From a virus, in IMG/VR virus record IMGVR_UViG_3300034406_000036, positions 4,668-68,667 of that record: a DNA stretch of 64,000 nucleotides; one strand, given 5' to 3'. Shown one piece after another: positions 400 through 61,323 of the stretch (its first letter is position 1; every line of letters starts with the position of its first letter). Position numbers and translations under genes: made by a program. The notes beneath the pieces are model-generated. The model ran no database searches and was not told where the DNA came from. It was given only the letters and a program-made list of their open reading frames with translations.

Positions 400-473
400 T
401 GGGCGGTAGTTTAACGAAAGAACAGCAGTCTTATATACTGCAGGCAAGGGTTTGACTCCCTTTCGCCCTACCA
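400..473 (+). tRNA. tRNA-Ile(UAU)
   Basis: GCAGT-CT-TAT-AT-ACTGC; T-loop TTTGACT; ACCA end. Confidence 0.85.
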
Positions 474-475
474 AT

Positions 476-504
476 TTGATTTTTATGAAAAAATAAAATA
501 TAAT
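476..504 (+). promoter_or_regulatory. sigma70-type promoter (recurring phage promoter)
   Basis: TTGATT-17nt-TATAAT followed by AATAAT. Confidence 0.75.
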
Positions 505-538
505 AATAATATAAGAAAAACGAAGGAGGCTTAGCTTA

Positions 539-3508: not shown

Positions 3509-3582
3509 GGGGGCGTCATCTAAAGGCAGGATAACAGACCTTCAATCTGTCAATGCGGGTTCGAATCCCGCCGTCCCTACCA
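3509..3582 (+). tRNA. tRNA-Glu(UUC) with C33
   Basis: ACAGA-CC-TTC-AA-TCTGT; Glu-type D arm; ACCA. Confidence 0.8.
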
Positions 3583-3584
3583 AG

Positions 3585-3613
3585 TTGATTTTTTTGAAAA
3601 TCCATTATATAAT
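3585..3613 (+). promoter_or_regulatory. sigma70-type promoter
   Basis: TTGATT-17nt-TATAAT-AATAAT. Confidence 0.75.
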
Positions 3614-3633
3614 AATAATGGAGGGAAAAATAT

Positions 3634-5756: not shown

Positions 5757-6096
5757 AATAGATGAACTGGGTGACCGCTCCATAAATGGAGAGGAAAGTC
5801 CGAGCATCATCAAGCAATAGGCTGGATAACGTCCAGAGTTCGTAAGGGCATGGAAAGTGCAACAGAAAATATACCGCCGAGAGGTAAGGGTGAAAAGGCA
5901 GGGTAAGAGCCTACCGCTTTGATAGTAATATCAAAGGCAGTGTAAACCCCCTATGATGCGAGACCAAATAGAAGACGAGAAGAGCTTGACTTCAATGACT
6001 CTTGGGTAGGTTGCTAGAGGTGTTAAGTAATTGGCATCCCAGATAGATGGTCACCGCCCGAAAGGGTACAGAACTCGGCTTATAGGTTCATTTATT
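5757..6096 (+). ncRNA. rnpB: RNase P RNA, bacterial type A
   Basis: Conserved GAGGAAAGTCC, AGTGCAACAGAAA, GGGTGAAA..GGTAAGAGC, GTAAACCCC and ACAGAACTCGGCTTA; P1 AATAGATGAAC/GTTCATTTATT. Confidence 0.96.
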
Positions 6097-6105
6097 TCTA
6101 TACGC

Positions 6106-6479: not shown

Positions 6480-7150
6480 TGGAAGAAATGAATTATCAAA
6501 GAGCTGTAGTTCTATTATCAGGTGGAATTGATTCCGCAGTAACTGCAGCTTATGCGCAGGAAATTAATGATTGTGAAGTTCATGGATTAACAATATCTTA
6601 TGGACAAAGACATGATAAGGAAATAAATTGCGCAAGAAAAGTACAGGAAGACCTTGGATTAGAATCATGGAGACTTTACGAAATGCCACGTCTCGTTGGT
6701 TCTAGTTTAACAGGAGAGGGAGATATACCTAATTATGAATCCGATGAAATACCAAATACATTTGTTCCCGCAAGAAATATCATATTTTTATCTGTGGCAA
6801 CAAATTTAGCAATGACGCTCGGAGCTCAGCATATTTATATCGGAGTAGGTGCTGTAGATTATTCAGGTTATCCAGATTGCAGACCAGAATTTATTACAGC
6901 CATGCGAAAAGCAATTAATATAGGTACAGATACAAAAATAGAAATCAGAACTCCAATTATTAATATGCCAAAGGAACAAGTCATCCGAATAGGTGAATGT
7001 TTGGGTGTTAATTTTTCTAATACTTGGAGTTGTTATAATGGCAGGGAAAAGGCTTGTGGAGTTTGTCCAAGCTGTAGAATAAGATTAAGAGCTTTCAAAG
7101 AAGCTGAATTAGTTGACCCGATTGCTTATGAAGAAGCAATTATTGCTTGA
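6479..7150 (+). CDS. queC: 7-cyano-7-deazaguanine synthase QueC
   Basis: SGGIDS, YGQRH, TFVPARN, GYPDCR, TWSCY..CGVCPSC. Confidence 0.95.
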   Translation: MEEMNYQRAVVLLSGGIDSAVTAAYAQEINDCEVHGLTISYGQRHDKEINCARKVQEDLGLESWRLYEMPRLVGSSLTGEGDIPNYESDEIPNTFVPARNIIFLSVATNLAMTLGAQHIYIGVGAVDYSGYPDCRPEFITAMRKAINIGTDTKIEIRTPIINMPKEQVIRIGECLGVNFSNTWSCYNGREKACGVCPSCRIRLRAFKEAELVDPIAYEEAIIA

Positions 7151-7175
7151 TTTTTTATAAAAAGTAAAGTATAAT
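7147..7175 (+). promoter_or_regulatory. sigma70-type promoter
   Basis: TTGATT-17nt-TATAAT-AATAAT. Confidence 0.75.
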
Positions 7176-7259
7176 AATAATAGAAGGCGTGCTAACGATA
7201 AAGCGTGATAACAACAGTCGTAATAGGAATAAGACGATATATTAGGAAAAGAAAAAGTA

Positions 7260-7574: not shown

Positions 7575-8136
7575 CGTTTTCATTGATGGAAGCTGTAAGC
7601 CCAATCCTGGTGGAATCGCTACTTATGGGTTGGTCTTTATGACTGGATTCGCAGAAGAAGGAACAGACCCAAAGAAAATCGCACAGCGGAAGTCAAATCT
7701 GATTCTTTTTGAGGAATCGGGATTTATTGGTAAGGGCGAAGGAATGTCAAACAATGTTGGTGAGTATGTTGCCCTTATTCAAGCGTTAAAGTTATGTCAA
7801 ACTCTTTATTGGCCAAACAAGAAGTTTAGAGAATTGGTTGTAGATAGTGGTAGTATTACTTGGGTGGCTTCAACAGTAGCAACCGAGAAGGTCATAATTC
7901 ATACTGATTCATCTTTGGTCTTTATGCAAATGGAGGGTTTACAAAAGGCTCATGGAGGATTATATTATCCATATTACCTAGAAGCGAAGGAACAACTAGA
8001 ATTATGTAGGCAACTAGGATGGACAATCGAATTTTGCTGGATTAAGAGCGCAGATAATCTTGCCGATAAGCCAGCAAAACAAGCTTTAATAAAGGCAAAG
8101 AAACTTGTTAGAGAAAGAATTAAGGCTAACTCGTGA
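7564..8136 (+). CDS. ribonuclease HI-like protein
   Basis: FIDGSCKPNPG, NNVGEYVALI, HTDSSLV, NLADKPA. Confidence 0.88.
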   Translation: MRYNVFIDGSCKPNPGGIATYGLVFMTGFAEEGTDPKKIAQRKSNLILFEESGFIGKGEGMSNNVGEYVALIQALKLCQTLYWPNKKFRELVVDSGSITWVASTVATEKVIIHTDSSLVFMQMEGLQKAHGGLYYPYYLEAKEQLELCRQLGWTIEFCWIKSADNLADKPAKQALIKAKKLVRERIKANS

Positions 8137-8161
8137 CTTTTAAAATAAATGATTGTATAAT
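8133..8161 (+). promoter_or_regulatory. sigma70-type promoter
   Basis: GTGACT-17nt-TATAAT-AATAAT. Confidence 0.65.
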
Positions 8162-8179
8162 AATAATTGAGGTGAATGA

Positions 8180-8816: not shown

Positions 8817-9069
8817 AAGAAGTATAATCGAAGAAGATAAGATTTCAAGGAAAAGATATATTAGTATTTGGAATCGCCCTTTTGAATTTAGTTGGTTGTG
8901 GATGAAAGAACCATTAGTAGTAAGAGGATTGATTCTCCCGATTATAGGTGGAATTGTATCTGCGGGATTTAGTATTAAAAATGGAGACATAACTTTTTCT
9001 CCTCAACTTTTTAATTTTAAGTTTAGCTTGAAGTGGGGAAAGAGAGCGAGCGAAAGAGGATTTTATTAA
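8806..9069 (+). CDS. hypothetical protein
   Basis: 87 aa. Confidence 0.5.
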   Translation: MESRRSIIEEDKISRKRYISIWNRPFEFSWLWMKEPLVVRGLILPIIGGIVSAGFSIKNGDITFSPQLFNFKFSLKWGKRASERGFY

Positions 9070-9072
9070 TAA

Positions 9073-9149
9073 GCTGGCGTAGCCCAATTGGCAGAGGCGA
9101 TGGTCTTAGAAGCCATGCGTTGTAGGTTCGAATCCTACCGTCAGTACCA
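9073..9149 (+). tRNA. tRNA-Leu(UAG), short variable loop
   Basis: ATGGT-CT-TAG-AA-GCCAT; ACCA. Confidence 0.92.
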
Positions 9150-9196
9150 AGAAAATGTCGTGATTTTTTTAGAAAAAATCATTGATAATAATAATA

Positions 9197-10430
9197 GGGA
9201 TTGGTGAGGAGTTGTGGATAAACGGGTGCGGATGTAAAACTGAAAGGGTATCCGAGTAGCCAATCTCACAAAAAAGAAAGGAAGGTGATTACTAAGGGTA
9301 ACTAAATAATTGAGTGTGTAATTAGTAAATTGTTTATTTGTAGATTTTTGTTGATAGGTTAAAAAAATTAGGAGGTGTGTTTTCAAGAGCTAAAAAGGAT
9401 TGAGTAAGTTTGTTTGATTAGTAGTTTAAAAATTGAAAGTGGGAACCAAGCGCAAAGGTTAACAAGTGGGCTTCGGATTTACGGACTGTGGGTTCGGTTC
9501 GTCGGTGTAGATAATTTTGAAGATTTGGGTTCGAGACCCAAGCTTCCGCGCAAGGGGTTAGTTCAACGGGGAGAATAGCGAAATTATACTGAATAATCTT
9601 CGGTAGTGAAGAGACTCAGGTCTTATCATGGGCTGTCCCACAAGGGGCATTACTCAATATAACACCAGGAGTATGCCGAAGTTGGAATGGTAAGCGTATA
9701 GGAGAATGGGTCTTACCAGTACAATCGTGGGGTTCGATTGTAAGCGCGCATACGGGAAGGTGGTCACGAAAGCTGTAGTGCTGGAACCGTAGAAGGGTAC
9801 CACTGCGACGAGTTGTGATGGGTTGATTCGTTAATCGTGGAAGGTAGTGCTGGAAAGCGAAAGGGACTACCAAGTGAGTAATGTCGGGTTAAGGCTCACA
9901 ATAGGATTTAATTAATTTGGCAGGTTGTCACGCATAGGAAATACGGTTGTCAAAACTCTAGAGTGTTTGGATATTCTGAAAGAGAGGGAACCGTCACGGA
10001 TGAAGTTTGAGGGTTTACGTTCATCCAAATTATTTTAGCTGGGGCGATTACACGCCGCGTTGGGAAGTGTAATCAGGTAGACGAAGGGTGGGTACCGTCT
10101 ATCATGCCGATAATAAATGCTGGAGACATGGTAGTGTCTGGTAACAATTGTTCTGAGCCAAGGAAAGGACTCAGATAAGTTCGATTCTTATCCCTTGCAG
10201 GAATTTATTAGGACTACCATCCGAAAGATTTCTAGAACAATTGAGTAGAGGGAGAGCTGTGTTGTCGGAAGTATGGAGCTAGGTGGGGAATCTAGCCCAG
10301 CATTATTATGAATTTTGTTCTCCCTGTTGAGCTACGGGCGCGATAGGCCTCACTGTCATGGAGGTATACGGGAAAGACAACGCCAATTATATTTTATTCC
10401 TCTAGGGAGTTGTCGTGCAAGTATTGGGGT
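9197..10430 (+). ncRNA. Giant ornate non-coding RNA candidate (GOLLD/ROOL-like size and context, family unassigned)
   Basis: About 1.2 kb with no + strand ORF in a gene-dense genome; starts after a promoter-like motif (9160-9189) and ends at the next promoter; many hairpins, a repeated module, two T-loops and a candidate pseudoknot. Confidence 0.75.
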
Positions 10431-10435
10431 TTAGC

Positions 10436-10464
10436 TTGCTTTTATTTTAAATTTATGGTATAAT
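10436..10464 (+). promoter_or_regulatory. sigma70-type promoter, extended -10
   Basis: TTGCTT-17nt-TATAAT with TGn before the -10. Confidence 0.75.
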
Positions 10465-10480
10465 AATAATAGAGGTTGAT

Positions 10481-10693
10481 ATGCAGTTTAGGTACGGAAT
10501 AACAGAACCATTCGAAGCTGAAAATCGGGAAGAAGCTGAAAGGATTGTAATCGAAAGGATGGAAGCCAAGGAATATCATCCTGGTAGAACTTATTGCTAT
10601 CTTCCCTTTCTTCTGCGTTCAGAAGAAGACCCGCCTTTACGATTTCTTGAAACTCCAGAAGAAATTCAGGAGTATTTGGAGGGGAAGAATTAG
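10481..10693 (+). CDS. hypothetical protein
   Basis: 70 aa, RBS GAGG. Confidence 0.6.
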   Translation: MQFRYGITEPFEAENREEAERIVIERMEAKEYHPGRTYCYLPFLLRSEEDPPLRFLETPEEIQEYLEGKN

Positions 10694-11190
10694 TGAATAT
10701 TTATATACACGATGATACTACTTACAGTGGATTTATAAACAGAGGTTCACAGGCAGCTTATTCTTTTCATAGTCAATGGAAAAGGGGTACTGATAGCCCT
10801 ATTTGTTTGGAGTTAACTCTTGGTGATAACTATGATATTCTTGAATTAATTAATAATAAACAAGTTGACCATTTTCATTATCATCGTGGTAAAAGAGCTT
10901 ATAATCGACACAAGAAAGAAGCCATGTATTATTTCGGTTATAAGGTTCCGACTAAAAAAGAGAAACCAACAAAGAAAATTATTTATTCTGATTCAATTTA
11001 TAATCCACTCAAAATAGCGGAAATTAAAGTAAATGGAAAGTTATTGCCCAACGGGAATCATTTAAGCGGATGTAAGTACACTGATTATTCAGAAGATAAA
11101 GCAAAGCTCGTGGAAGAGTATAATAAGATTTTTACTGAATGGGAAAATAAAAGAAAAGAATTTAGAGAGAAAATATTCGAGTCGGTGTAG
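10693..11190 (+). CDS. hypothetical protein
   Basis: 165 aa; stop codon lies inside the next tRNA. Confidence 0.6.
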   Translation: MNIYIHDDTTYSGFINRGSQAAYSFHSQWKRGTDSPICLELTLGDNYDILELINNKQVDHFHYHRGKRAYNRHKKEAMYYFGYKVPTKKEKPTKKIIYSDSIYNPLKIAEIKVNGKLLPNGNHLSGCKYTDYSEDKAKLVEEYNKIFTEWENKRKEFREKIFESV

Positions 11191-11259
11191 TCCAACTTCG
11201 GTAGAGACAATAGGCTTAAACCCTATCCAGTGTGGGTTCGAATCCCACCGCCGATACCA
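11181..11259 (+). tRNA. tRNA-Leu(UAA), short variable loop
   Basis: ATAGG-CT-TAA-AC-CCTAT; ACCA. Confidence 0.92.
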
Positions 11260-12559: not shown

Positions 12560-13324
12560 ATGGAAAGATTATTAGTAGCATCAGAATATACTGAACCTGC
12601 ATTTTATGTAGATAAAGTAAATAAAAATTTAGATAAAGAACTAGAGAAACATAAATGCGGTCTTTTATTAATAACTAAAGATATTGAAAACAGTACTCCA
12701 ATTTATGAACACGCTCTTGCTTGTGGTGTTCCTTGCGTTGTTCATATTACAGTCACTGGATTAAGTTTAACAAAGATAGAACCTAATACGCCAGCTTGGG
12801 AAGATGTAATTACTGGAGACATACCACGATTTCTAGAAAAGGTTGGCAATAAGGAAAATGTAGTAATTAGAATAGACCCATTAGTTCCCGATGTCACAGA
12901 TTGGAGATTTATCGAAGAGATTTTAAAACATGCAGGACATTATGGAATAACTAGATGCAGGACTTCAATCGTTGATTATTATCCATTTGTAAGAGAAAAA
13001 TTTAATAAAGTAGGAGCTAAAACGTTTGGAGATGATTTTATAGCTCCGTTACCTTACAGAATGGAAATGTTAACTCGAATATGTAGAATGGCCAAAAAGT
13101 ATGAAATTGAAGTTGAATCCTGTGCGGAGAATATTGAAATAGAAGAATTAAAGAAGGTAGGTTGTGCTGATAGAAAGGAATGGCAAGCACTAGGACTAGA
13201 TGCTCAACCAGGAATGGCTAGAAGGACAACTTGCTTTTGTAATTTAAATAAATTTGATTTATTAAATAGAGAAAAAGAATGCCCGTTCAATTGTTTATAT
13301 TGTTATTGGGGCAAAGAACGGTAG
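12560..13324 (+). CDS. DUF1848-like (radical SAM / photoproduct lyase-like fold) protein
   Basis: ITVTG..IEPN, VIRIDPL, SCAE, C-terminal CFC..CPFNCLYCYW. Confidence 0.7.
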   Translation: MERLLVASEYTEPAFYVDKVNKNLDKELEKHKCGLLLITKDIENSTPIYEHALACGVPCVVHITVTGLSLTKIEPNTPAWEDVITGDIPRFLEKVGNKENVVIRIDPLVPDVTDWRFIEEILKHAGHYGITRCRTSIVDYYPFVREKFNKVGAKTFGDDFIAPLPYRMEMLTRICRMAKKYEIEVESCAENIEIEELKKVGCADRKEWQALGLDAQPGMARRTTCFCNLNKFDLLNREKECPFNCLYCYWGKER

Positions 13325-13414
13325 TGTCTTTTTAGAAAAAAGATGTTATAATAAAATACTAGATTGAAATGTTTTTTCCTAAAATTTTGGTTTTATCAAA
13401 ATATGTGATATAAT
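13324..13414 (+). promoter_or_regulatory. Two tandem sigma70-type promoters upstream of the Ro60 gene
   Basis: GTGTCT-17nt-TATAAT (13324-13352) and TTGGTT-16nt-TATAAT (13387-13414), both with TGn before the -10. Confidence 0.6.
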
Positions 13415-13466: not shown

Positions 13467-15032
13467 ATGCAAAGAAACAAAGTATCTGAGCTGTATGGAA
13501 GTAGAAATCCATATTCCGAAACAAAGAAAAGAAACTACGAAGGAGCTCCAACGTTCGCATCAACACCAGAGGAACAACTTTTGTGTGTTTTGATGACAGG
13601 AACAATGGAGGACACATTTTATGTTAGCCAAAAGGAATTAGCAGAGGATGCTATCACTCTGTTCAAGTACTTTGCAGTAGCTGACCCAGAGTTTCTTGCA
13701 AAGGCAATCGTTTATGCAAGAAATGATGGATTTATGAGATTCTCTCCAATTAGTGCGTTGGTAGTATTATCAACTGCAACAAACAAGGAGTACTTTAAGC
13801 AAGCATTCCCAAGGACAATCCGAACTCCTGGTGACCTACAAGATTTTGTAGCAATCGTGAGAACAGGCAAGATTCGGGGTATGGGAAGAGTAATCAAGGA
13901 AGCTGTAAATGATTGGCTGGCAAACCTTTCAGAATATCATATCATCAAGTATGGTTCTGGAAATCAAGCTATGTCTTTGCGAGATATCTATAGGATGACT
14001 CGACCAAAGCCAATGGACAATCTACAACTTGCAAAGGCAAAGTATATTGTAAATGGTGAACTTGCTGGTGAGGGGTTAGAACAACTAGCAACTTATGAAA
14101 GATTTAAGAAGGAAGGAAGGGACGAAAAGAATGCCATCACTTTGATTAGGGAAGGTAGACTTCCTTATGAGGTAGTAACTGCAATCGCTCCTTCAACTGA
14201 AGCTGTATGGGCAGAATTGCTTCGACAAGCACCATATATGAATCTAATCCGAAATCTAAATAACTTTGATAAGTATGACGTATTTAAGGATAGCGAAGCT
14301 GTTGAATATGCAGTAAATGTTATTGCTGATGAAAATAGAGTAAAGAATTCAATGCAATTCCCATTTAGATTCTTTGCTGCTGCGCAGGAATTTGGTGGAA
14401 AGAATCAAAAGATTACTGAGGCTTTGCATGAGGCTTTGGAAATCTCATTGGGCAATATCCCAGACCTTGGAAATAGTACACTAGCTTCAAACGATATTTC
14501 TGGTTCAATGAGCCAAAATATTTCACCAAGGTCAAAGGTTACTGCAGCAAACATTGCTGGAATCTTTGCAGCTGCTGTTTTCAAGAAGGCAAAGGACGGA
14601 AGAATCATTTCATTCGAAGCGAAAGCTCATCGAAGAAATGTTTCAACAAGGGATAGTATGCTTTCAATTGCAAAGGCAGTTGGGACAGCAAGTTATGGAG
14701 CTACCGCAGCTTCTGCACCAATTCTTCAACTATGTGATAGGAAGGAATTCGTTGATACAATCATAATGATGACGGACAGCGAATCATGGGCTGATAGATG
14801 GGTTGGAGATTCACCAGGAACTGTTGGTGCTCTTAGAAAGTATAAGGCAGAGATAAATCCTGAAGTAAAGACTTTCCTTATTCAATTAATGCCTTATGGT
14901 CATAGATTGGTTGAGGAGTCAGAACCAAACTGTAATTACATTTATGGTTGGTCACCTGATGTAGTAAGATATATTGGGTATCAGGTGGAAAGTCAAACCC
15001 AACTTGAAAAAGTAAAAGCAATAGAATTATAG
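13467..15032 (+). CDS. Ro60/Rsr-like TROVE + vWA RNA-binding protein
   Basis: 521 aa; N-terminal NYEGAPTF, TFY, YARNDGFMR, LIRNLNN, FPFRF; vWA MIDAS DISGSM and TDSESW, IYGWS. Confidence 0.92.
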   Translation: MQRNKVSELYGSRNPYSETKKRNYEGAPTFASTPEEQLLCVLMTGTMEDTFYVSQKELAEDAITLFKYFAVADPEFLAKAIVYARNDGFMRFSPISALVVLSTATNKEYFKQAFPRTIRTPGDLQDFVAIVRTGKIRGMGRVIKEAVNDWLANLSEYHIIKYGSGNQAMSLRDIYRMTRPKPMDNLQLAKAKYIVNGELAGEGLEQLATYERFKKEGRDEKNAITLIREGRLPYEVVTAIAPSTEAVWAELLRQAPYMNLIRNLNNFDKYDVFKDSEAVEYAVNVIADENRVKNSMQFPFRFFAAAQEFGGKNQKITEALHEALEISLGNIPDLGNSTLASNDISGSMSQNISPRSKVTAANIAGIFAAAVFKKAKDGRIISFEAKAHRRNVSTRDSMLSIAKAVGTASYGATAASAPILQLCDRKEFVDTIIMMTDSESWADRWVGDSPGTVGALRKYKAEINPEVKTFLIQLMPYGHRLVEESEPNCNYIYGWSPDVVRYIGYQVESQTQLEKVKAIEL

Positions 15033-15041
15033 ATAATAAAT

Positions 15042-15096
15042 AGAGGTGTAGATAGGGATACTTCGTGCTGTGAAAGGCCTTATCAACCCTTCCTCT
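15042..15096 (+). ncRNA. Y-RNA-like unit 1 (minimal scaffold)
   Basis: AGAGG/CCTCT, GATAGGG/CCTTATC, ATACTTCG. Confidence 0.75.
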
Positions 15097-15115
15097 TTTT
15101 AAAATTGAATAATAT

Positions 15116-15193
15116 AGAGGTGACAGTAGGGATACTTCGTTGCAGAAACAAAACTCTAACACAGTTTTAGGTGCCTTACTAATTACTTCCTCT
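15116..15193 (+). ncRNA. Y-RNA-like unit 2
   Basis: AGAGG/CCTCT, AGTAGGG/CCTTACT, ATACTTCG; variable hairpin AAAACT/AGTTTT. Confidence 0.75.
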
Positions 15194-15210
15194 TAAAAAA
15201 AAGAATAGTC

Positions 15211-15279
15211 AGGGGTGCTGGTATGGGTTACTTCGTTTTAACTATTGGAAACTTTTTGTGCCTAACCGAACTTTCCTCT
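15211..15279 (+). ncRNA. Y-RNA-like unit 3
   Basis: AGGGG/CCTCT, GGTATGGGT/GCCTAACC, TTACTTCG. Confidence 0.72.
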
Positions 15280-15296
15280 CAATTAAGGAATCTACT

Positions 15297-15423
15297 TGGG
15301 GTGTCTGGTAGAGTTACTTCGCCTTGAAATGCGCGTGGTCGGGTTCGAATCCTGAATCCCCTATTTAAAGGGGATGAGCTCGTGGTTGAGCACGTACTGT
15401 TTTCTTTATCAACCTTTTCCCCA
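15297..15423 (+). ncRNA. YrlA-type Y RNA with permuted tRNA-like domain (unit 4)
   Basis: TGGGG/CCCCA, GGTAGAG/CTTTATC, TTACTTCG; T-arm TCGGG-TTCGAAT-CCTGA, closed acceptor ATCCCCT/AGGGGAT, D-arm GCTC-GTGGTT-GAGC. Confidence 0.88.
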
Positions 15424-15435
15424 TAAATAAACAAA

Positions 15436-15520
15436 AAAGATTTAATGAATTTCTTTTAAAAAATCCTCTGAGTTACGGGGCTATAAGCGGCGCGAAAGCA
15501 AAGAAATTCATTAAATCTTT
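15436..15520. repeat. Perfect 21-bp inverted repeat enclosing a 43-nt insert inside the Y-RNA array
   Basis: AAAGATTTAATGAATTTCTTT(15436-15456)/AAAGAAATTCATTAAATCTTT(15500-15520). Confidence 0.9.
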
Positions 15521-15521
15521 A

Positions 15522-15633
15522 TTGAGGTGTCTGTGGAGATACTTCGACCACCAAAATCGGTTAACGTTGGACGAGCTTTCTGCGAATGCGGTAAGTACCA
15601 ACGATAATAGTGCTTCACAAAAGCTTTCCTCAA
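15522..15633 (+). ncRNA. Y-RNA-like unit 5
   Basis: TTGAGG/CCTCAA, TGTGGAG/CTTCACA, ATACTTCG; variable domain CGTTGG/CCAACG enclosing CTGC-GAAT-GCGG. Confidence 0.75.
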
Positions 15634-15648
15634 AAAAGAAAACTAAAT

Positions 15649-15784
15649 ATGAGGTGTAGGTAGAGTTACTTCGGTACATTCAATGAGAAACACATTGCTA
15701 TCAGGTTCAAATCCTGAAAAAGAAACCAACGCATTAATTCATAGAGAATTATGGTTTCAGTAAACTTTATCGATTCTTCCTCAT
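15649..15784 (+). ncRNA. Y-RNA-like unit 6 with degenerate tRNA-like domain
   Basis: ATGAGG/CCTCAT, GGTAGAGTT/AACTTTATC, TTACTTCG; T-arm TCAGG-TTCAAAT-CCTGA. Confidence 0.78.
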
Positions 15785-15824
15785 TAAGAAAAGCAAGGAG
15801 CCCAAGAAGTGATGAGAGTAAAAT

Positions 15825-25420: not shown

Positions 25421-27154
25421 GTGCTTAAACAAGCAAGATTTGATTTAAACAATTCACCAACGGTTGAATTGGATAGTTTGGAGAGAAAACTTTTAGATTC
25501 TAAATTTGTTGCAATTGATACGGAAACAACAGGTTTAGATTGGATGCGAGAAAAGGTATTTGGTGTTAGTCTTGCTTGCGATGAGAATGGTGTTTTTCTC
25601 CGAACTAATGATTATGATATTGATAAATTATCTGCTTTATTGGCGAACCTATATAGAGATAGTAAGGTTCGAAAGTTCTTTCACAATGCAAAATTTGATT
25701 TGCATCATATAAGAGAAACATTTGGAATTTCTCCAGATAATCCTAGTATAGAAGATACTATGATTATGTGTCGTTTGGTTTATGATGATACGCCAAAGGG
25801 ACAAATGGGATTGAAATCATTGGCCGAACGATATCTAGCGGTTGAACGCGGAAATATGAAAAGCGTATTCAACCAATATATTAAAAAGAACAACCTAGAT
25901 TCTTGGCAAGAAATCCCATCTGAGATTTTTGATGTATATGCAATTAATGATGCTGTAGATACTTATAAATTGGCAAGTTTATGGGATGGGGAAATTGCAG
26001 ATAAACTTGCTGAATTATATCAAATAGAAAAAGAATTGACTTTAGTTCTTCTGGATATGGAGAAAGAAGGAATTCTTGTTAATCAGGATATATTAAAGGA
26101 TTATGGAGAACAGCTTTCTACAAGATTAGAGAAAGGTTTAAAAATGATAGAAAAGAAAGCTGGTCGTGATATTAATCCTCTTTCTGAACCAGATGTAAAA
26201 AAACTTTTCTACGAAGAATTAGGTTTCGAACCACCTAATAAAGTTAAACCACAAGTTGATGATAAAACATTAAAACAATTTAACCATCCACTGGTGCCTC
26301 TGATTCTTCAATATAGAAAATTAGCAAAGTTAAATTCTACTTATGCGACTGGTATTTTGGAGGCTTTAGGCCCTGATGGTAGATTGCATACCACTTATAA
26401 TCAAGCAGGGGCAAGGACAGGAAGATTATCGTCTAGTGAACCAAACCTACAAAACATTGTAGATGATAAAATTATTAGGAGCGCTTTTATTACTGATTCG
26501 TCTTTAACCTTTTTTGATTATGGACAGATTGAATATAGATTATTTGCACATTATGCCGATGACCCAGTAATGATTGAAGCTTTTATTCAAGGGGAAGATT
26601 TTCATAGATGGACTGCTTCAAAAGCATTTAGAGTTCCTCTCGAAGAAGTAACACCTGAATTGAGAAAAAAAGGAAAAAGTCTTAATTTTGGTCTCATTTA
26701 CGGTATGGGCATAAATACATTAGCCCAGACACTAGGGATTACTAAAACTGAAGCAAAGCAATTTTTGAATGATTATTATAATACTTATAAAAGACTTGGG
26801 CCTTACACGGAAGAATTAAAGAAGCAATTAGTTGATATAGGATATATAGAGAGCTTATATGGTAGAAGAAGACATTTACCAGAAGAACATTCATATCAAG
26901 TTTTAAATTCTTTAATTCAGGGAACAGCAGCAGATGTTTTAAAGATAGCAATGAATAAAATCGGGAAGCATTTAAAAGGAACGGATTCAAAATTAATTTT
27001 AACTATTCATGATGAAATTTGTATTGAAAATCTTCCAGAAAGTGAAATTCCAAAAATATTGGAATTAATGACAACTGGATTTGATTATATAAGTGTACCA
27101 CTAATGGTAGATATGCAAAGGGTTACCGATAGTTGGGCAAGCGTGGAGAAGTAA
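25421..27154 (+). CDS. polA: family A DNA polymerase with 3'-5' exonuclease
   Basis: DTETTG, HNAKFD, TGRLSSSEPNLQN, DYGQIEYR, KSLNFGLIYG, IQGTAAD, IHDE. Confidence 0.96.
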   Translation: MLKQARFDLNNSPTVELDSLERKLLDSKFVAIDTETTGLDWMREKVFGVSLACDENGVFLRTNDYDIDKLSALLANLYRDSKVRKFFHNAKFDLHHIRETFGISPDNPSIEDTMIMCRLVYDDTPKGQMGLKSLAERYLAVERGNMKSVFNQYIKKNNLDSWQEIPSEIFDVYAINDAVDTYKLASLWDGEIADKLAELYQIEKELTLVLLDMEKEGILVNQDILKDYGEQLSTRLEKGLKMIEKKAGRDINPLSEPDVKKLFYEELGFEPPNKVKPQVDDKTLKQFNHPLVPLILQYRKLAKLNSTYATGILEALGPDGRLHTTYNQAGARTGRLSSSEPNLQNIVDDKIIRSAFITDSSLTFFDYGQIEYRLFAHYADDPVMIEAFIQGEDFHRWTASKAFRVPLEEVTPELRKKGKSLNFGLIYGMGINTLAQTLGITKTEAKQFLNDYYNTYKRLGPYTEELKKQLVDIGYIESLYGRRRHLPEEHSYQVLNSLIQGTAADVLKIAMNKIGKHLKGTDSKLILTIHDEICIENLPESEIPKILELMTTGFDYISVPLMVDMQRVTDSWASVEK

Positions 27155-54575: not shown

Positions 54576-54581
54576 AAAAGT

Positions 54582-54610
54582 TTGACTTTTTAAAAAAAGT
54601 GTGATATAAT
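54582..54610 (+). promoter_or_regulatory. sigma70-type promoter, extended -10
   Basis: TTGACT-17nt-TATAAT with TGn. Confidence 0.78.
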
Positions 54611-54741
54611 AAATAATAGGAAGAAATAATGACATATTGTCCAGATTGTAAATTTTTCGATTATGATTGTCATCCAGACCCAGAGAATTATCATTATGGA
54701 TGCCATCGTTTTGAATACTGGGAAGAAGATGAAGAAGATGA

Positions 54742-59273: not shown

Positions 59274-59687
59274 ATGAATATCTGGAAAAAATTAAAATCT
59301 ATAAAAATAGACATGACTGGGATGTATAATATCATAAAACATCCAAATACTCCCATAGTGGAATTGAAAGATTCAATACGTCCTGCTGTATATGATATCG
59401 AAGATTTAGTAAATATCTCGCAAGGACTTCATGGAGAAAGTAAGGCAGAGCTTATGAATTATTATAAGAGAGAAGCCTTAATAGATGATAGTGAAACCGC
59501 AGTAAAGCAATATGAAAAAATGATTGACATGGGATATAGATTAATTCCAGATAATGAAGAACTAGATGATATTGCAAAAGAGGTAATTAAAACTTTTAAT
59601 GAGTCTGGGCAATCTACTTTTACTGGCAGAGCGATGAGTTTAGCAGTAAAATTATATTGTAATCATTTAAGGAATAGGGGATATTAA
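59274..59687 (+). CDS. hypothetical protein
   Basis: 137 aa, RBS AGGAGG; shares MLDLGFRRIP/MIDMGYRLIP motif with 59006-59263. Confidence 0.6.
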   Translation: MNIWKKLKSIKIDMTGMYNIIKHPNTPIVELKDSIRPAVYDIEDLVNISQGLHGESKAELMNYYKREALIDDSETAVKQYEKMIDMGYRLIPDNEELDDIAKEVIKTFNESGQSTFTGRAMSLAVKLYCNHLRNRGY

Positions 59688-60521
59688 TGAATATCAAGAA
59701 ATTAATTTGCAAATTAGTTGACCATGATTGGGCCTTGAGAAGAGATGGATGGCCAACTGGTCATTGGCACAAGGTATGCCAACGATGTGGGAAGACAATT
59801 AGGTTAACAGCATGAAACAAATATTTTGTAGAAAATGCCATGTGTGATTGTATTCTTCATCCCGACCCAATAATAAGTATTCTTACTAGGATTGAGAATT
59901 TGGAGAAAGATAATCTGGAACTGAAAGAAGAAATTAGAAAACTGAAGAACCGAATGCCTTTACCTAGAATGGAAGATTGTACAGTGGAGTAAATAATGGC
60001 ACATCTATGTCATAATTGTGGAAAATTAGTAGCGGACGGTGAATCTTGTAATTGTACAGGAACAGTATCGAATGATGTAATTCGGCGAAGGCTTACAGAC
60101 TTGGAAGAATCAAATGAAAAGCTGTGGATTATGATTGAAGAATTGGTAAGTCGGGTCAAGACTCTCGAAGAAAAATAGTTTGCTTTTTGATAAAAAATAG
60201 GTATAATATAATTAGGTGAATGAAAATGTTGAAAAAGATATTAAGGAAACTTCGCTATTTAAGTGAAGGAAGATTTTATGAGTGGAGGGAGATAAAATGA
60301 ACTTTGCAAGAGATTTACCAGCAATTAAAATGCCCAATTTTGGTGATTGGGGTAGTTATGGTTTGTGGCCAAAAGAAGATACAGGATGGGTATTTTAATG
60401 CCTACTAATCCATGGCGGAGAATGCGTCCGTGTCCTGTTCCATTATATGATACTGCGGGCGCTCCATTTAAAATTTATCCAGACCCGAGAGGATGGTAAT
60501 AATGTGTGGAAAGCATTGGTA

Positions 60522-60732
60522 GAACTAACTCTCCAAGCGAGCCCTAAGTCATTAGCCGATAAGTATTCTGCGGTAAAGAAAGGATGTGCGTCTGAAGGTT
60601 CTTAACCGTGACCAGTAGCCAGTGAAAGCTAAATTCGGAATTAGTTACTTGATACTTGTTCAGGTTCCGATGGGGTAAATGGAATGTTGATTTTAGAAAG
60701 TGAGAGGGGTAGTCAGTTCCAGGGGTTAGTTC
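60522..60732 (+). ncRNA. Candidate rod-like ncRNA of about 210 nt
   Basis: GAACTAACTCT/GGGGTTAGTTC closing helix; GATAAGTAT/ATACTTGTT inner helix; no ORF. Confidence 0.5.
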
Positions 60733-61323
60733 ATAATTTTGGAGGAAGTTATGATAGAAATAGAGGATATATCCTTTGTTCTCGATGAATTAAATAATAA
60801 ACCTGAAAAGATAAGGATAGAATATAAGGATTGTGATACTCAATTAAGGGGTAAAATCTCTTTAATGGCGCCAAATTTTGACGATATTAGTGCTGAATTG
60901 ATTGCTGAATATAGTTCACTAGTTGTCGACCAAATAAGAGAAAATATGAAGAGTTTATTATTCTCGGAAGATTTGGCAAGAACCCAAAGAAAGTAATTTG
61001 CTAACGCCTTAAAGAAATCAATCATGGAAGCATTAAATGAAGAAGATAATTAAAAGAATTAAAAAATGGTGGTATGATAATACCCATATCGTAACTTGGG
61101 AAGAAGTAAAGTTTATGATAATGGAAGAACTCGGTCTTGATGAGAAAGGAGCAGAATCTTTACACAAAGGAATGCAGCAAGCCGCCAGAGGAGAGACCGT
61201 TACTCGCAACTCATTTTCCCAATTCGTAAATGATAATAATTCTGATACAGAAAATGTTTGCAACGAAGAAAATAAGGAGTAATTTTAGGTATCCGTACAG
61301 AGACACAATTTGAAAGGAAAAGA

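What the first reader, a model, noticed from the sequence alone, without database searches (positions are those of the whole stretch)
9197..10430. Ornate non-coding RNA candidate of about 1.2 kb with a thrice-repeated module and a candidate pseudoknot
Seen in sequence: this is the longest stretch without a + strand ORF, bracketed by promoter motifs. It has many helices: GGTAAG/CTTACC, ACAATCG/CGATTGT, GTGAG/CTCAC, ACGGTT/AACCGT, GGATGAA/TTCATCC, GATTACAC/GTGTAATC, GTAGACG/CGTCTAT, AGGGAGAGC/GTTCTCCCT, GCTAG/CTAGC. Many hairpin loops carry a GGG run. A module GTAGTG(T)CTGG(A/T)A...G(G/T)ACYAC recurs three times (about 9775-9806, 9843-9871, 10128-10220). CAATTGTTCT (10145-10154) is the perfect complement of AGAACAATTG (10234-10243) and crosses the third module helix. 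Established: phages encode large ornate RNAs (GOLLD, ROOL) next to tRNA clusters. Inference: this is a divergent member or a new class of giant RNA, or several RNAs in one transcript. I cannot assign a family by eye.
Basis: partly seen in the sequence, partly recalled or inferred. Interest (0 to 1): 0.85.

Follow-up and report, generated by a model that had tools for sequence, protein, structure and literature searches.

The report
Large unclassified structured phage RNA candidate
A 1.25-kb gene-free, GC-rich stretch of a tRNA-rich phage genome looks like a large folded non-coding RNA of no known family, but no relatives could be found, so its structure and role remain unproven.

Summary
Window 9197-10450 is the longest ORF-free gap and the longest GC-rich island (0.45-0.50 against 0.355) of a 68.7-kb phage record. 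That record also carries 28 tRNAs, a bacterial-type RNase P RNA, Ro60 and six Y-RNA-like genes. A phage-type promoter precedes the stretch; a hairpin plus T-tract and the next promoter follow it; no internal promoter was found. A 20-bp long-range helix (0 of 200 shuffles reach its score) closes a ~800-nt core. Hairpins with GGG in the loop number 10, against 1.8 in shuffles (0 of 300), 0-2 in coding controls and 2 in another ORF-poor gap. No Rfam family matches at E<=10: GOLLD, ROOL, YrlA, introns and tmRNA are all absent. No short ORF matches Pfam or PHROGs. The weak point is that every search for homologues failed, so there is no covariation, and no expression data were available. MFE z-scores and raw hairpin counts do not separate it from coding DNA. 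The repeated module and the pseudoknot are each only marginal (p about 0.06-0.07). Best reading: one independently transcribed, highly structured ncRNA of a new class, analogous to but not a member of GOLLD/ROOL. The mechanism is inferred only.

The parts
9158..9199 (+). Phage-type promoter (-35 GTGATTTTTTT with a palindromic A/T element, extended -10 GATAATAATAATAG) directly upstream of the candidate
   Evidence: Motif search and listing. Held-out profile hit at 9158-9197, E 0.022, rank 8 in the genome. Generic sigma-70 scan hit at 9168-9195.
9197..9267 (+). 5' terminal hairpin (GGGAUUGGU / GCCAAUCUC closing stem)
   Evidence: Pair probability 0.95 in the partition function. Folded alone: -19.5 kcal/mol, z -1.70, 11 of 200 shuffles fold as well.
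9268..9518 (+). Leader with weak structure. It is AT-rich to about 9440 (GC 0.28-0.37 in 150-nt windows); the GC-rich island begins at about 9434.
   Evidence: Composition. MFE helices here have pair probabilities of only 0.35-0.81.
9519..9546 (+). T-arm-like hairpin (UUGGG-UUCGAGA-CCCAA) just before the closing helix
   Evidence: Pair probability 0.97-0.98. GTTCGA occurs 3 times against 0.34 expected (3 of 1000 shuffles). The relaxed ARAGORN cloverleaf around it is poor.
9547..9585 (+). 5' strand of the long-range closing helix (CGCGC, then 20 uninterrupted pairs 9559-9578, then further pairs)
   Evidence: Pair probability 0.98-0.99. The 20-bp run scores 43 against shuffles 28.3+-3.1, maximum 41, 0 of 200; six coding controls score 23-32. 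4 of the 20 pairs are G-U.
9547..10342 (+). Closed, multi-branched core domain of 796 nt
   Evidence: MFE -260.1 kcal/mol, z -5.40, 0 of 20 shuffles. GC 0.45-0.50. Longest GC island of the genome.
9688..9742 (+). Two adjacent G-loop hairpins (UGGUAAG..CUUACCA with loop ..AAUGGGU; UACAAUCG-UGGGGUU-CGAUUGUA)
   Evidence: Pair probabilities 0.98-0.99; hairpin list.
9773..9807 (+). Module copy 1 (GUAGUG-CUGGAA...GAAGGG..-CACUGC)
   Evidence: Exact 12-mer at 9775-9786. Low pair probability in the ensemble, 0.27-0.82.
9843..9871 (+). Module copy 2 (GGUAGU-GCUGGAAAGCGAAAGGG-ACUACC)
   Evidence: Exact 12-mer at 9844-9855. Pair probability 0.97.
9874..9899 (+). G-loop hairpin GUGAGU-AAUGUCGGGUUAAG-GCUCAC
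   Evidence: Hairpin list. An alternative pairing is used in the MFE.
9998..10103 (+). Three consecutive G-loop hairpins (GGAUGAA.., GAUUACAC.., GGUAGACG..)
   Evidence: Pair probabilities 0.84, 0.96 and 0.96. Hairpin list. Used for covariance model R1.
10127..10220 (+). Module copy 3: 8-bp helix AUGGUAGU/ACUACCAU around a ~78-nt insert that holds a T-arm-like hairpin
   Evidence: Variant motif GTAGTGTCTGGTA at 10131. GGACTACCA is repeated at 9864 and 10211. This helix is not in the MFE.
10145..10154 (+). 5' arm of the candidate pseudoknot helix (CAAUUGUUCU)
   Evidence: Perfect 10-nt complement of 10234-10243. Pair probability 0.51. Chance: 36 of 500 shuffles.
10174..10192 (+). T-arm-like hairpin GAUAAG-UUCGAUU-CUUAUC
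   Evidence: Hairpin list. Pair probability only 0.15 in the global ensemble. The relaxed ARAGORN cloverleaf around it is poor.
10234..10243 (+). 3' arm of the candidate pseudoknot helix (AGAACAAUUG)
10278..10296 (+). G-loop hairpin GCUAGGU-GGGGA-AUCUAGC
   Evidence: Pair probability 0.99.
10311..10342 (+). 3' strand of the long-range closing helix
10417..10450 (+). Terminator-like hairpin GCAAGU-AUUGGGGUUUA-GCUUGC followed by UUUUAUUUUA
   Evidence: Hairpin list and sequence. The generic terminator scan did not call it, because its loop exceeds 8 nt. The terminator role is an inference.
10428..10475 (+). Next phage promoter, for the 70-aa ORF at 10481; it bounds the unit on the 3' side
   Evidence: Profile hit E 1.7e-8.

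Best explanation
Window ~9200-10450 (+ strand) is most likely one independently transcribed, non-coding, highly structured RNA gene of a family not yet described.

Shown or directly read from the sequence:
- It has no credible ORF.
- It carries a phage-type sigma-70-like promoter at its 5' edge.
- A hairpin plus T-tract and the next promoter lie at its 3' edge.
- No internal promoter of that type is present.
- Its GC content matches the tRNAs and RNase P RNA of the same genome.
- A 20-bp long-range helix closes a ~800-nt multi-branched core.
- From that core at least ten stable hairpins project loops that contain GGG, often GGGUU.
- Two hairpins have canonical T-loop sequences.

Inferred:
- The RNA acts as an architectural or scaffold RNA.
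- Its many exposed G-rich loops and T-loops make higher-order contacts: within the molecule, between copies, or with a C-rich RNA or a protein partner.
- That is the way GOLLD and ROOL use loops and A-minor contacts to build multimers.
- It works in the early, RNA-centred programme of this phage, alongside the tRNAs, RNase P RNA, QueC, Ro60 and Y RNAs.
- The specific partner and the biological role are unknown.
For: - No + strand ORF above 54 aa. None of 7 short ORFs on either strand matches PHROGs or Pfam convincingly; the best is E 0.034.
- Longest ORF-free gap of 11 in the genome and longest GC island (~1 kb at >=0.44, against a genome mean of 0.355, sd 0.045). The other islands are mostly tRNA clusters and the RNase P RNA; several short ones and one ~1-kb run lie in coding sequence.
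- Promoter at 9158-9197 recovered by a held-out profile (E 0.022). The next promoter is at 10428-10475. No hit inside at E<=50.
- Long-range helix of 20 uninterrupted pairs: score 43 against shuffles 28.3+-3.1, 0 of 200; coding controls 23-32. Pair probability 0.98. Its 4 G-U pairs would be A-C mismatches on the - strand.
- Core MFE z -5.40, 0 of 20 shuffles.
- Hairpins with stem >=6: 19 against 9.4+-3.1 (0 of 300). With GGG in the loop: 10 against 1.8+-1.3 (0 of 300). The GGG count itself is unremarkable.
- GGG-loop hairpins number 0-2 in 11 coding controls and 2 (shuffles 1.9) in the other long ORF-poor gap.
- GGGTT 8 against 2.8 (1 of 1000); GTTCGA 3 against 0.34 (3 of 1000).
- Context matches what Kretsch et al. 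and Weinberg et al. describe for GOLLD/ROOL: phage-encoded and near tRNA islands (passages read). tRNA-Leu genes flank the unit.
Against: - No homologue by any route, so there is no covariation.
  - Sequence searches found nothing: blastn against 50,697 phage records and a module pattern scan of viral contigs (0 hits).
  - Three single-protein anchor scans of viral contigs found no relatives, and a fourth with the A4 alignment found none either.
  - The loci that could be fetched hold nothing similar: 20 viral Ro60 loci plus 10 whole viral records, 8 DUF1848-anchored loci and 40 cellular Ro60 loci.
  - A covariance model of a sub-domain, run over 1,037,218 bases, gave only the self hit.
  - The tools may leave out the window's own record and very near ones, so part of this blank may be by design.
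- No expression evidence could be obtained.
- The MFE z-score is not specific. One of 6 coding controls reaches -5.14. 150-nt sliding z-scores are weak, though they are also weak for the bona fide RNase P RNA.
- The raw hairpin count lies within the coding range of 8-27.
- The z-score is equal on both strands. The strand therefore rests on the promoter, gene orientation and G-U pairs.
- The promoter match is the weakest of the seven (11.6 bits against 24.8-37.1).
- The module repeat and the pseudoknot arms are individually marginal (28 and 36 of 500 shuffles).
Confidence: 0.45

Rival explanations
1. Multivalent decoy or sponge. The RNA's job is to present a dozen G-rich (GGG/GGA) hairpin loops that titrate a host factor. 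That factor could be the CCUCC anti-Shine-Dalgarno end of 16S rRNA (30S subunits) or a loop-binding regulator of the CsrA type. It would work like CsrB/RsmZ, but in the service of phage take-over.
For: GGG sits in hairpin loops far more often than chance allows (10 against 1.8, 0 of 300). GGAA occurs 14 times against 7.6 expected (6 of 500 shuffles). Some loops contain AGGAG or AAGGA (sequence). The promoter is of the same type as those in the tRNA-rich region. GOLLD is reported to pull down ribosomes (passage in Kretsch et al.).
Against: The GGG contexts show no single extended loop motif. No CsrB/Rsm-type Rfam family matches at E<=10. The phage record holds no CsrA gene (the record is 67% complete). 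The host is unknown. A sponge does not need an 800-nt domain closed by a 20-bp helix.
Confidence: 0.15
2. Precursor of several smaller RNAs. One primary transcript is cut at tRNA-like T-arm hairpins by RNase P (the phage encodes its own RNase P RNA) or RNase Z/E. The cuts yield separate sRNAs, for example the 5' hairpin, the modules and the 3' domain.
For: There are two canonical T-loop hairpins and GTTCGA enrichment. At a relaxed threshold, ARAGORN places tRNA-like elements around both. A phage-encoded RNase P RNA scoring 279 bits lies 3 kb upstream. The 5' hairpin 9197-9267 looks self-contained. The same genome expresses other small RNAs as a tandem array.
Against: Both relaxed cloverleaves have 2-3 acceptor-stem mismatches and fail default ARAGORN and the Rfam tRNA model at E<=10. 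The strongest feature is a long-range helix joining positions ~780 nt apart, which argues for one folded unit. There are no internal promoters.
Confidence: 0.12
3. Not an RNA gene. This is an intergenic stretch without RNA function: a decayed gene remnant, or a DNA-level element such as a replication origin or packaging site. Its hairpins would matter, if at all, in DNA.
For: It is a singleton with no conservation evidence. The MFE z-score is identical on both strands. One coding control is equally 'structured'. The raw hairpin count is ordinary for this genome.
Against: In an AT-rich genome, a decaying or origin region should be AT-rich, not the longest GC island. The other long ORF-poor gap shows none of the features. 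A dedicated promoter is present. The closing helix depends on 4 G-U pairs, which exist only in + strand RNA. No tandem iterons were found. Cumulative GC skew does not turn here.
Confidence: 0.18
4. Ro60-linked RNA. This would be a giant Y-RNA-like partner, or a dedicated substrate, of the phage Ro60 protein encoded 3 kb downstream. The three modules would serve as Ro60 sites.
For: It lies within 4 kb of Ro60 on the same strand, which is the placement rule Chen et al. 2014 found for Y RNAs (passages; coordinates). It shares a 10-mer, GTGTCTGGTA, with Y-like unit 4.
Against: The phage already has six Y-RNA-like units directly downstream of Ro60. A profile of their conserved 5' motif does not hit the candidate even at E<=100. 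By my estimate, sharing one 10-mer between regions of these sizes is about what chance gives. Y RNAs are 80-130 nt. The Rfam YrlA hit (17.4 bits, E 2.3) overlaps the real tRNA-Leu, not the candidate.
Confidence: 0.05
5. A very divergent member of a known large RNA family: GOLLD, ROOL, OLE, HEARO, a group I or II intron, or tmRNA.
For: Only the context and size resemble GOLLD/ROOL.
Against: No family hit at E<=10 in 8900-10700 with permissive filters. GOLLD RF02032 and ROOL RF03087 have no hit at E<=10 in the whole genome. Group-II-D1D4-1 has no hit. There is no reverse transcriptase. ARAGORN finds no tmRNA at default settings, and only sub-threshold permuted calls with implausible tags at relaxed settings.
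Confidence: 0.03

Closest known systems
GOLLD RNA (Rfam RF02032)
   Same: Encoded by phages and prophages, often next to tRNA islands. About 800 nt or more, with many multi-stem junctions. No associated protein is known, and the function is unknown (passages in Kretsch et al., bioRxiv 10.1101/2024.12.08.627333; Weinberg et al. 2017). The candidate is phage-encoded, flanked by tRNA-Leu genes, and has a ~800-nt closed core.
   Different: The Rfam model, which covers the conserved region (416 positions), gives no match at E<=10. There is no evidence of multimerisation here. The recurring G-loop hairpins are a feature of this sequence and are not something I could tie to GOLLD.
ROOL RNA (Rfam RF03087)
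   Same: A large structured RNA (average 581 nt) of phages and prophages near tRNAs. Function unknown. It forms RNA-only cages through loop-loop and A-minor contacts.
   Different: No match at E<=10. Note that the model rang in none of the 14 control genomes, so that call alone is weak; one search covers the same family. The candidate is longer, and no shared motifs were detected.
CsrB/RsmZ-type sponge RNAs
   Same: Many hairpins present a short G-rich motif in their loops. The candidate has 10 strong hairpins with GGG in the loop, and several contain GGA.
   Different: The description of CsrB/RsmZ is recalled, not taken from a call. No Rfam family of this type matched. The candidate is three times larger and closed by a long-range helix. 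The loop motif is GGG(U/A) rather than a defined A(N)GGA. No CsrA gene is in the phage record.
Bacterial and phage Y RNAs (YrlA, Rfam RF02553)
   Same: They lie on the same strand within 4 kb of a Ro60 gene and contain T-arm-like elements (Chen et al. 2014, passages).
   Different: Y RNAs are 80-130 nt with a terminal stem made of both ends. The candidate is ~1250 nt and lacks the Y 5' motif of this phage. The real Y-like RNAs of this phage are the six units at 15041-15790.

Membership tests
GOLLD (RF02032) | Significant match to the family covariance model (conserved 3' region) | tested here: not met
   No hit at E<=10 in 8900-10700. No hit at E<=10 in the whole 68.7-kb genome; 6 candidates were scored.
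GOLLD (RF02032) | Phage or prophage location near tRNA genes; length around 800 nt or more | tested here: met
   Phage record with 28 tRNAs. tRNA-Leu lies at 9073-9149 and 11181-11259. The core is 796 nt and the whole unit about 1250 nt.
GOLLD / ROOL | RNA-only homo-oligomeric assembly (14-mer or 8-mer cage) | not testable with these tools
   This needs native gels, mass photometry or cryo-EM of the transcript.
ROOL (RF03087) | Significant match to the family covariance model | tested here: not met
   No hit at E<=10. In one search the model rang in no control genome either.
Y RNA / YrlA (RF02553) | 80-130 nt RNA whose 5' and 3' ends form the Ro60-binding stem; conserved 5' motif | tested here: not met
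   The unit is ~1250 nt. The only YrlA hit (17.4 bits, E 2.3) overlaps tRNA-Leu at 9114-9186. The profile of this phage's Y 5' motif has no hit in the candidate at E<=100.
Y RNA / YrlA (RF02553) | Encoded within 4 kb of Ro60 on the same strand | tested here: met
   The candidate ends at ~10450 and Ro60 starts at 13467, both on the + strand. The rule comes from Chen et al. 2014.
tRNA / tmRNA | Cloverleaf or tmRNA architecture detected by ARAGORN or Rfam | tested here: not met
   Nothing at default settings. At relaxed thresholds only two poor cloverleaves and permuted-tmRNA calls with implausible tags appear.
Group I / group II introns | Match to intron covariance models; an intron-encoded protein for group II | tested here: not met
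   No Rfam hit at E<=10. Group-II-D1D4-1 has no hit. No RVT_1 domain is in the genome.
CsrB/RsmZ-type sponge | Many hairpin loops carrying the protein-binding G-rich motif | tested here: inconclusive
   GGG-loop hairpins number 10 against 1.8 expected, but there is no defined A(N)GGA consensus and no Rfam match.
CsrB/RsmZ-type sponge | A cognate CsrA/RsmA protein in the phage or host | tested here: inconclusive
   No CsrA in the phage record, which is 67% complete. The host is unknown.

The most novel reading that the evidence does not exclude
This is the founding member of a new class of giant phage RNAs. The ~800-nt core, closed by a 20-bp helix, would use its dozen G-rich loops and T-loops to assemble into an RNA-only multimer or to dock tRNA-like partners, as GOLLD and ROOL do. 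The phage would bring its own RNA-processing and quality-control kit: RNase P RNA, Ro60 and six Y RNAs.
Probability: 0.12. Interest if true: 0.85.

Novelty: new variant of a known kind. Interest (0 to 1): 0.55.

Why it matters
Only a handful of bacterial or phage RNAs larger than about 500 nt are known outside rRNA and introns. Two of them, GOLLD and ROOL, were recently shown to form RNA-only cages of unknown function. Both are phage-linked and sit beside tRNA genes.

A third, unrelated RNA with the same genomic habit would suggest that large architectural RNAs are a recurrent phage strategy. It would also give a new object for cryo-EM.

The genome context is unusually rich: 28 tRNAs, a full-length RNase P RNA, and Ro60 with a six-unit Y-RNA array. 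This makes the phage a compact system in which to ask what such RNAs do.

As it stands the case rests on one sequence. Its value is as a well-defined, cheaply testable candidate, not as an established class.

Tried and rejected
Known families. Rfam at gathering thresholds over the window gave only tRNAs and RNase P. At E<=10 over 8900-10700 it gave only the tRNA and three chance-level hits. GOLLD, ROOL and group-II-D1D4-1 over the genome gave nothing. RF01998 was my mistaken recall of the GOLLD accession.

Homologue hunts, all blank for the RNA:
- blastn 'distant' against phages: no match. At E<=10, 3 hits of 24-26 nt, each E=3.
- Exact-peptide scans of viral contigs with the 165-aa ORF, Ro60 and the DNA polymerase: none.
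- Ro60 alignment A1 in viral contigs: 20 loci. blastn/nhmmer of the candidate against them: best a 61-nt, 70% match in the AT-rich leader, E 0.011, and no nhmmer hit.
- Whole records G001-G010: best E 0.012 over 20 nt.
- Metagenome scan with Ro60: none.
- DUF1848 alignment A2: 1 viral and 7 metagenome loci, none in genome contigs. No RNA similarity; best E 0.85.
- Module pattern in viral contigs: 0.
The 5-sequence A4 found none.
- A1 in genome contigs: 40 loci, mostly Chloroflexota and CPR MAGs. blastn best E 0.24; nhmmer none.
- Covariance model R1 (9995-10106) over 70 sources: self hit only.

Several tools state that the window's own record and very near ones may be left out.

Relatedness of other phages. 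G001 shares 8 of our + strand ORFs at 28-49% identity, and G005 shares 2. Neither has an analogue. G005's 976-nt gap holds small ORFs and no Rfam hit.

Sequencing runs. None was listed, and no RNA holder was listed; read laying was therefore not used.

Folding statistics that do not discriminate. These are the 150-nt sliding z-scores, the global z against coding controls and the raw hairpin counts.

Link to the Y-like units. Rejected by the profile search.

Neighbouring proteins. The 165-aa protein folds confidently (pLDDT 93.5) but has no PDB match (best E 0.88). NCBIfam gave nothing for 9 neighbours. The family has 19 members at E<=0.001 among 1.84 billion representatives.

Other exclusions. 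No RT and no CsrA in the record.

Literature. Searches were seen as listings only. I read passages of 10.1101/2024.12.08.627333, PMC5737381 and PMC4201824. No supplements were seen; the supplementary tables of Chen et al. 2014 listing phage Y RNAs may bear on the Y-array note.
Full report
WHAT THE WINDOW IS. The window is bases 4668-68667 of a single 68,667-bp virus record. The record is 35.5% G+C and no terminal repeat was found. CheckV-type completeness is 67% and the ends are classed as linear. Nearly all long ORFs are on the + strand. Identifiable genes include:
- DnaB-like helicase;
- family-A DNA polymerase, UvsX-like recombinase, ribonucleotide reductase, terminase, portal and protease;
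- QueC, an RNase H-like protein, a DUF1848 protein and a Ro60/TROVE+vWA protein at 13467-15032.

The record has 23 tRNAs in the window, or 28 in the genome. It also has a full-length bacterial class A RNase P RNA at 5759-6098 (279 bits, model positions 1-367). The phage is far from anything in the reference collections: the portal's best tblastn identity is 25%, to haloviruses, and the best Ro60 relatives are 48-50% identical.

CHECK OF THE OBSERVATION. The longest + strand ORF between 9207 and 10481 is 54 aa. The longest antisense ORFs are 81 and 85 aa. None of 7 short ORFs has a convincing PHROGs or Pfam match; the best is E 0.034. After masking every stop-free frame of >=100 codons on either strand, the gap that holds the finding (window 9070-10650, 1581 nt) is the longest of 11 gaps >=450 nt.

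G+C rises to 0.45-0.50 over 9450-10350, against 0.29-0.40 in the flanks. This is the longest stretch of the genome at >=0.44. The other islands are mostly tRNA clusters and the RNase P RNA; several short islands and one run of about 1 kb lie in coding sequence.

Eight appear in the MFE or in my hairpin list. The ninth competes with a stronger long-range helix.

TRANSCRIPTION SIGNALS. A motif of the form TTGATTTTTT - spacer - TATAATAATAATAGAGG occurs seven times on the + strand. One copy lies at the very start of the record and the rest lie within the first 10.5 kb of the window. The short core pattern gives 6 hits against 0.22 expected (0 of 100 shuffles). Five of the six copies in the window lie just upstream of ORF starts; the sixth lies at the 5' edge of the candidate.

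A profile built from five copies, leaving out the candidate's own, recovers 9158-9197 at E 0.022 (11.6 bits, rank 8 in the genome). The other six copies score 24.8-37.1 bits. The next copy, 10428-10475, scores E 1.7e-8. Nothing inside 9200-10427 scores at E<=50.

Just before the downstream promoter lies the hairpin GCAAGU-AUUGGGGUUUA-GCUUGC followed by UUUUAUUUUA. I read this as a terminator by inference; the generic scan did not call it.

The stretch therefore has the layout of one transcription unit of about 1250 nt without a reading frame.

STRUCTURE BEYOND CHANCE, AND ITS LIMITS.
- Long-range helix. The partition function for 9197-10450 puts a helix at 9547-9585 / 10311-10342 with pair probability 0.98-0.99. 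Its central run of 20 uninterrupted pairs (9559-9578 / 10315-10334) scores 43. Dinucleotide shuffles give 28.3+-3.1 with a maximum of 41 (0 of 200), and six coding segments of equal length give 23-32. Four of the 20 pairs are G-U and would be A-C mismatches on the - strand.
- Core fold. The helix closes a 796-nt core that folds at -260.1 kcal/mol, z -5.40, 0 of 20 shuffles. The - strand has the same z (-5.47) at -191.6 kcal/mol, so energy alone does not fix the strand.
- Coding controls. Six coding controls gave z of -1.42, -1.32, -5.14, +0.92, -0.09 and +0.65. The z-score supports the reading but is not specific.
- Sliding windows. 150-nt windows are uninformative; even the RNase P RNA reaches only about -1.7.
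- Hairpin count. There are 19 local hairpins with stem >=6 bp, at most one G-U and a loop of 4-20 nt, against 9.4+-3.1 in shuffles (0 of 300). Eleven coding controls have 8-27, so the count alone is ordinary for this genome.
- GGG in loops. This is not ordinary. Ten of the 19 loops contain GGG, against 1.8+-1.3 in shuffles (0 of 300). The total number of GGG is as expected, 34 against 33.5. Coding controls have 0-2 such hairpins. The genome's other long ORF-poor gap (59688-61199) has 2, with shuffles at 1.9, and no hairpin excess at all, 20 against 18.5.
- Short motifs. GGGTT occurs 8 times against 2.8 (1 of 1000). The T-loop core GTTCGA occurs 3 times against 0.34 (3 of 1000). Two hairpins, 9524-9542 and 10174-10192, have canonical T-arm sequences. 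The cloverleaves that relaxed ARAGORN builds around them are poor.

THE MODULE AND THE PSEUDOKNOT. GTAGTGCTGGAA is exact at 9775 and 9844, and a one-base-longer variant lies at 10131. GGACTACCA recurs at 9864 and 10211.

Read together, these are three hairpins with the same 5' strand. Each loop opens with (U)CUGG(A/U)A and closes with a G-rich AGG or GGG. The third hairpin carries a ~78-nt insert. An exact direct repeat of >=12 nt arises in 28 of 500 shuffles, so the repeat is suggestive and no more.

The arms 10145-10154 and 10234-10243 are perfectly complementary. They cross the 8-bp helix 10127-10134/10213-10220, so a pseudoknot is geometrically possible. However, a perfect 10-mer within 100 nt arises in 36 of 500 shuffles. 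Six of the ten bases are the palindrome CAATTG. The MFE uses the 10-bp helix (probability 0.51) and not the module helix.

WHAT IT IS NOT.
- No Rfam family matches at E<=10 in 8900-10700 apart from the real tRNA-Leu.
- GOLLD (RF02032) and ROOL (RF03087) have no hit at E<=10 in the genome.
- There is no group II signature and no reverse transcriptase.
- There is no tmRNA.
- It is also not the Ro60 partner, as the next section shows.

THE RO60 PARTNERS LIE ELSEWHERE. The 790-nt gap directly downstream of Ro60 holds six tandem units, with motif starts at 15044, 15118, 15214, 15300, 15525 and 15652. Each has an AT-rich promoter-like lead, a conserved 5' motif GAGGUGU..GGUAG(A/G)G(A/U)UACUUCG, a variable body and a 3' end UUCCUC(U). 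The two ends pair as AGAGG/CCUCU, with compensatory variants UGGGG/CCCCA, UGAGG/CCUCA and AUGAGG/CCUCAU.

The core of that motif recurs beside Ro60 in 8 other viral loci (10 rows, two of them re-fetched copies of L001 and L007). It also recurs beside Ro60 in 7 of 40 cellular Ro60 loci, all Chloroflexota-type MAGs. A profile of the motif finds all six units (E 1.8e-6 to 4.6e-4) and nothing in the candidate at E<=100. By my estimate, the 10-mer shared between module 3 and unit 4 is what chance would give for regions of these sizes.

SEARCH FOR RELATIVES. Every route failed; the calls are listed under Tried and rejected. In short:
- no blastn similarity in 50,697 phage records;
- none in 20 viral Ro60 loci and 10 whole viral records;
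- none in 8 DUF1848-anchored loci;
- none in 40 cellular Ro60 loci;
- no pattern hit in the viral collection;
- only the self hit for a covariance model of 9995-10106 over 1.04 Mb.

The nearest phage found, G001, shares only 8 ORFs at 28-49% identity. The blank therefore shows that no distant relative is detectable. It does not show that the RNA is unique. No sequencing run was listed, so expression is untested.

INTERPRETATION. The composition, the lack of coding capacity, the dedicated promoter, the significant closing helix and the non-random placement of GGG in hairpin loops together make a functional, folded + strand RNA the best explanation. I put that at roughly 0.7 summed over all RNA readings. 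Of this, 0.45 goes to a single architectural RNA of a new class.

How it works is inference. The many exposed G-rich loops and T-loops are the kind of elements that large RNAs use for tertiary and quaternary contacts. The genomic habit matches GOLLD and ROOL: phage-encoded, beside tRNAs, 0.8 kb or more, and no partner protein (passages).

Rivals are a G-loop sponge for 30S subunits or a CsrA-like protein, a precursor cut into several sRNAs, a non-functional or DNA-level element, a Ro60-linked RNA, and a divergent known family. Each is given with its evidence in the structured fields.

VERDICT. This is a real and well-delimited candidate, correctly spotted. It is not a member of any known family. 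It resembles GOLLD/ROOL in context and scale only. The claim of a new class of giant RNA cannot be established from one sequence. Interest is 0.55.

Noticed in passing
window 15041-15790: Six tandem Y-RNA-like genes lie directly downstream of the Ro60 gene. Each has a conserved 5' motif (GAGGUGU..GGUAGRGWUACUUCG) and a terminal stem made of the 5' and 3' ends, with compensatory variants between units. Units 4 and 6 contain T-arm-like GGUUCGAAUCC and GGUUCAAAUCC. Rfam YrlA does not detect them at E<=10. The motif TRGRGWTACTTCG recurs beside Ro60 in 8 other viral loci and in 7 of 40 cellular, Chloroflexota-type Ro60 loci. This looks like a Y-RNA variant that the current model does not cover, in an unusually large array.
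   Followed up: partly
window 5759-6098: A full-length bacterial class A RNase P RNA (279 bits, model positions 1-367 of 367) is encoded by the phage between tRNA genes. A literature search listing showed no paper obviously describing phage-encoded RNase P RNA. I did not read further, so I make no claim of novelty.
   Followed up: partly
genome position 1-41; window 465-515, 3575-3624, 7139-7186, 8124-8172, 9158-9197, 10428-10475: A phage-specific promoter consensus: TTGATTTTTT with a palindromic A/T element, then TATAATAATAATAGAGG. It is confined to the tRNA-rich left part of the genome. Weaker profile hits lie upstream of Ro60 (13324-13354) and of the second tRNA cluster (54579-54617).
   Followed up: partly
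window 15430-15524: A long, nearly perfect AT-rich hairpin of about 25 bp lies between Y-like units 4 and 5. Rfam picked it up only as chance miRNA-precursor hits on both strands.
   Followed up: no
window 10693-11190: The 165-aa protein directly downstream of the candidate belongs to a small family: 19 proteins at E<=0.001 among 1.84 billion representatives. The family has an invariant W..RH signature. Its predicted fold is confident (pLDDT 93.5) but has no PDB match (best E 0.88).
   Followed up: partly
window 25500-26295: A coding segment inside the DNA polymerase gene has an MFE z-score of -5.14 (10 shuffles) and the highest hairpin count of the controls (27). This may be chance or a structured mRNA region. 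It shows that global z-scores do not discriminate in this genome.
   Followed up: no
window 59688-61199: This is the second-longest ORF-poor gap (1512 nt, GC 0.365), with a small GC island at 60359-60683 and a weak promoter-profile hit at 60177-60208. It shows no hairpin or G-loop excess and no Rfam hit better than E 0.18 within 59600-60800. Its content is unexplained.
   Followed up: partly
window 12560-13324 and loci L033-L040: The DUF1848 protein between the candidate and Ro60 has a family of 40-52% identical relatives. The nearest of these in the viral collection (L033) also shares two other proteins with this phage at 55-61% identity. That makes it the closest relative seen, although only a 22.8-kb fragment.
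   Followed up: partly
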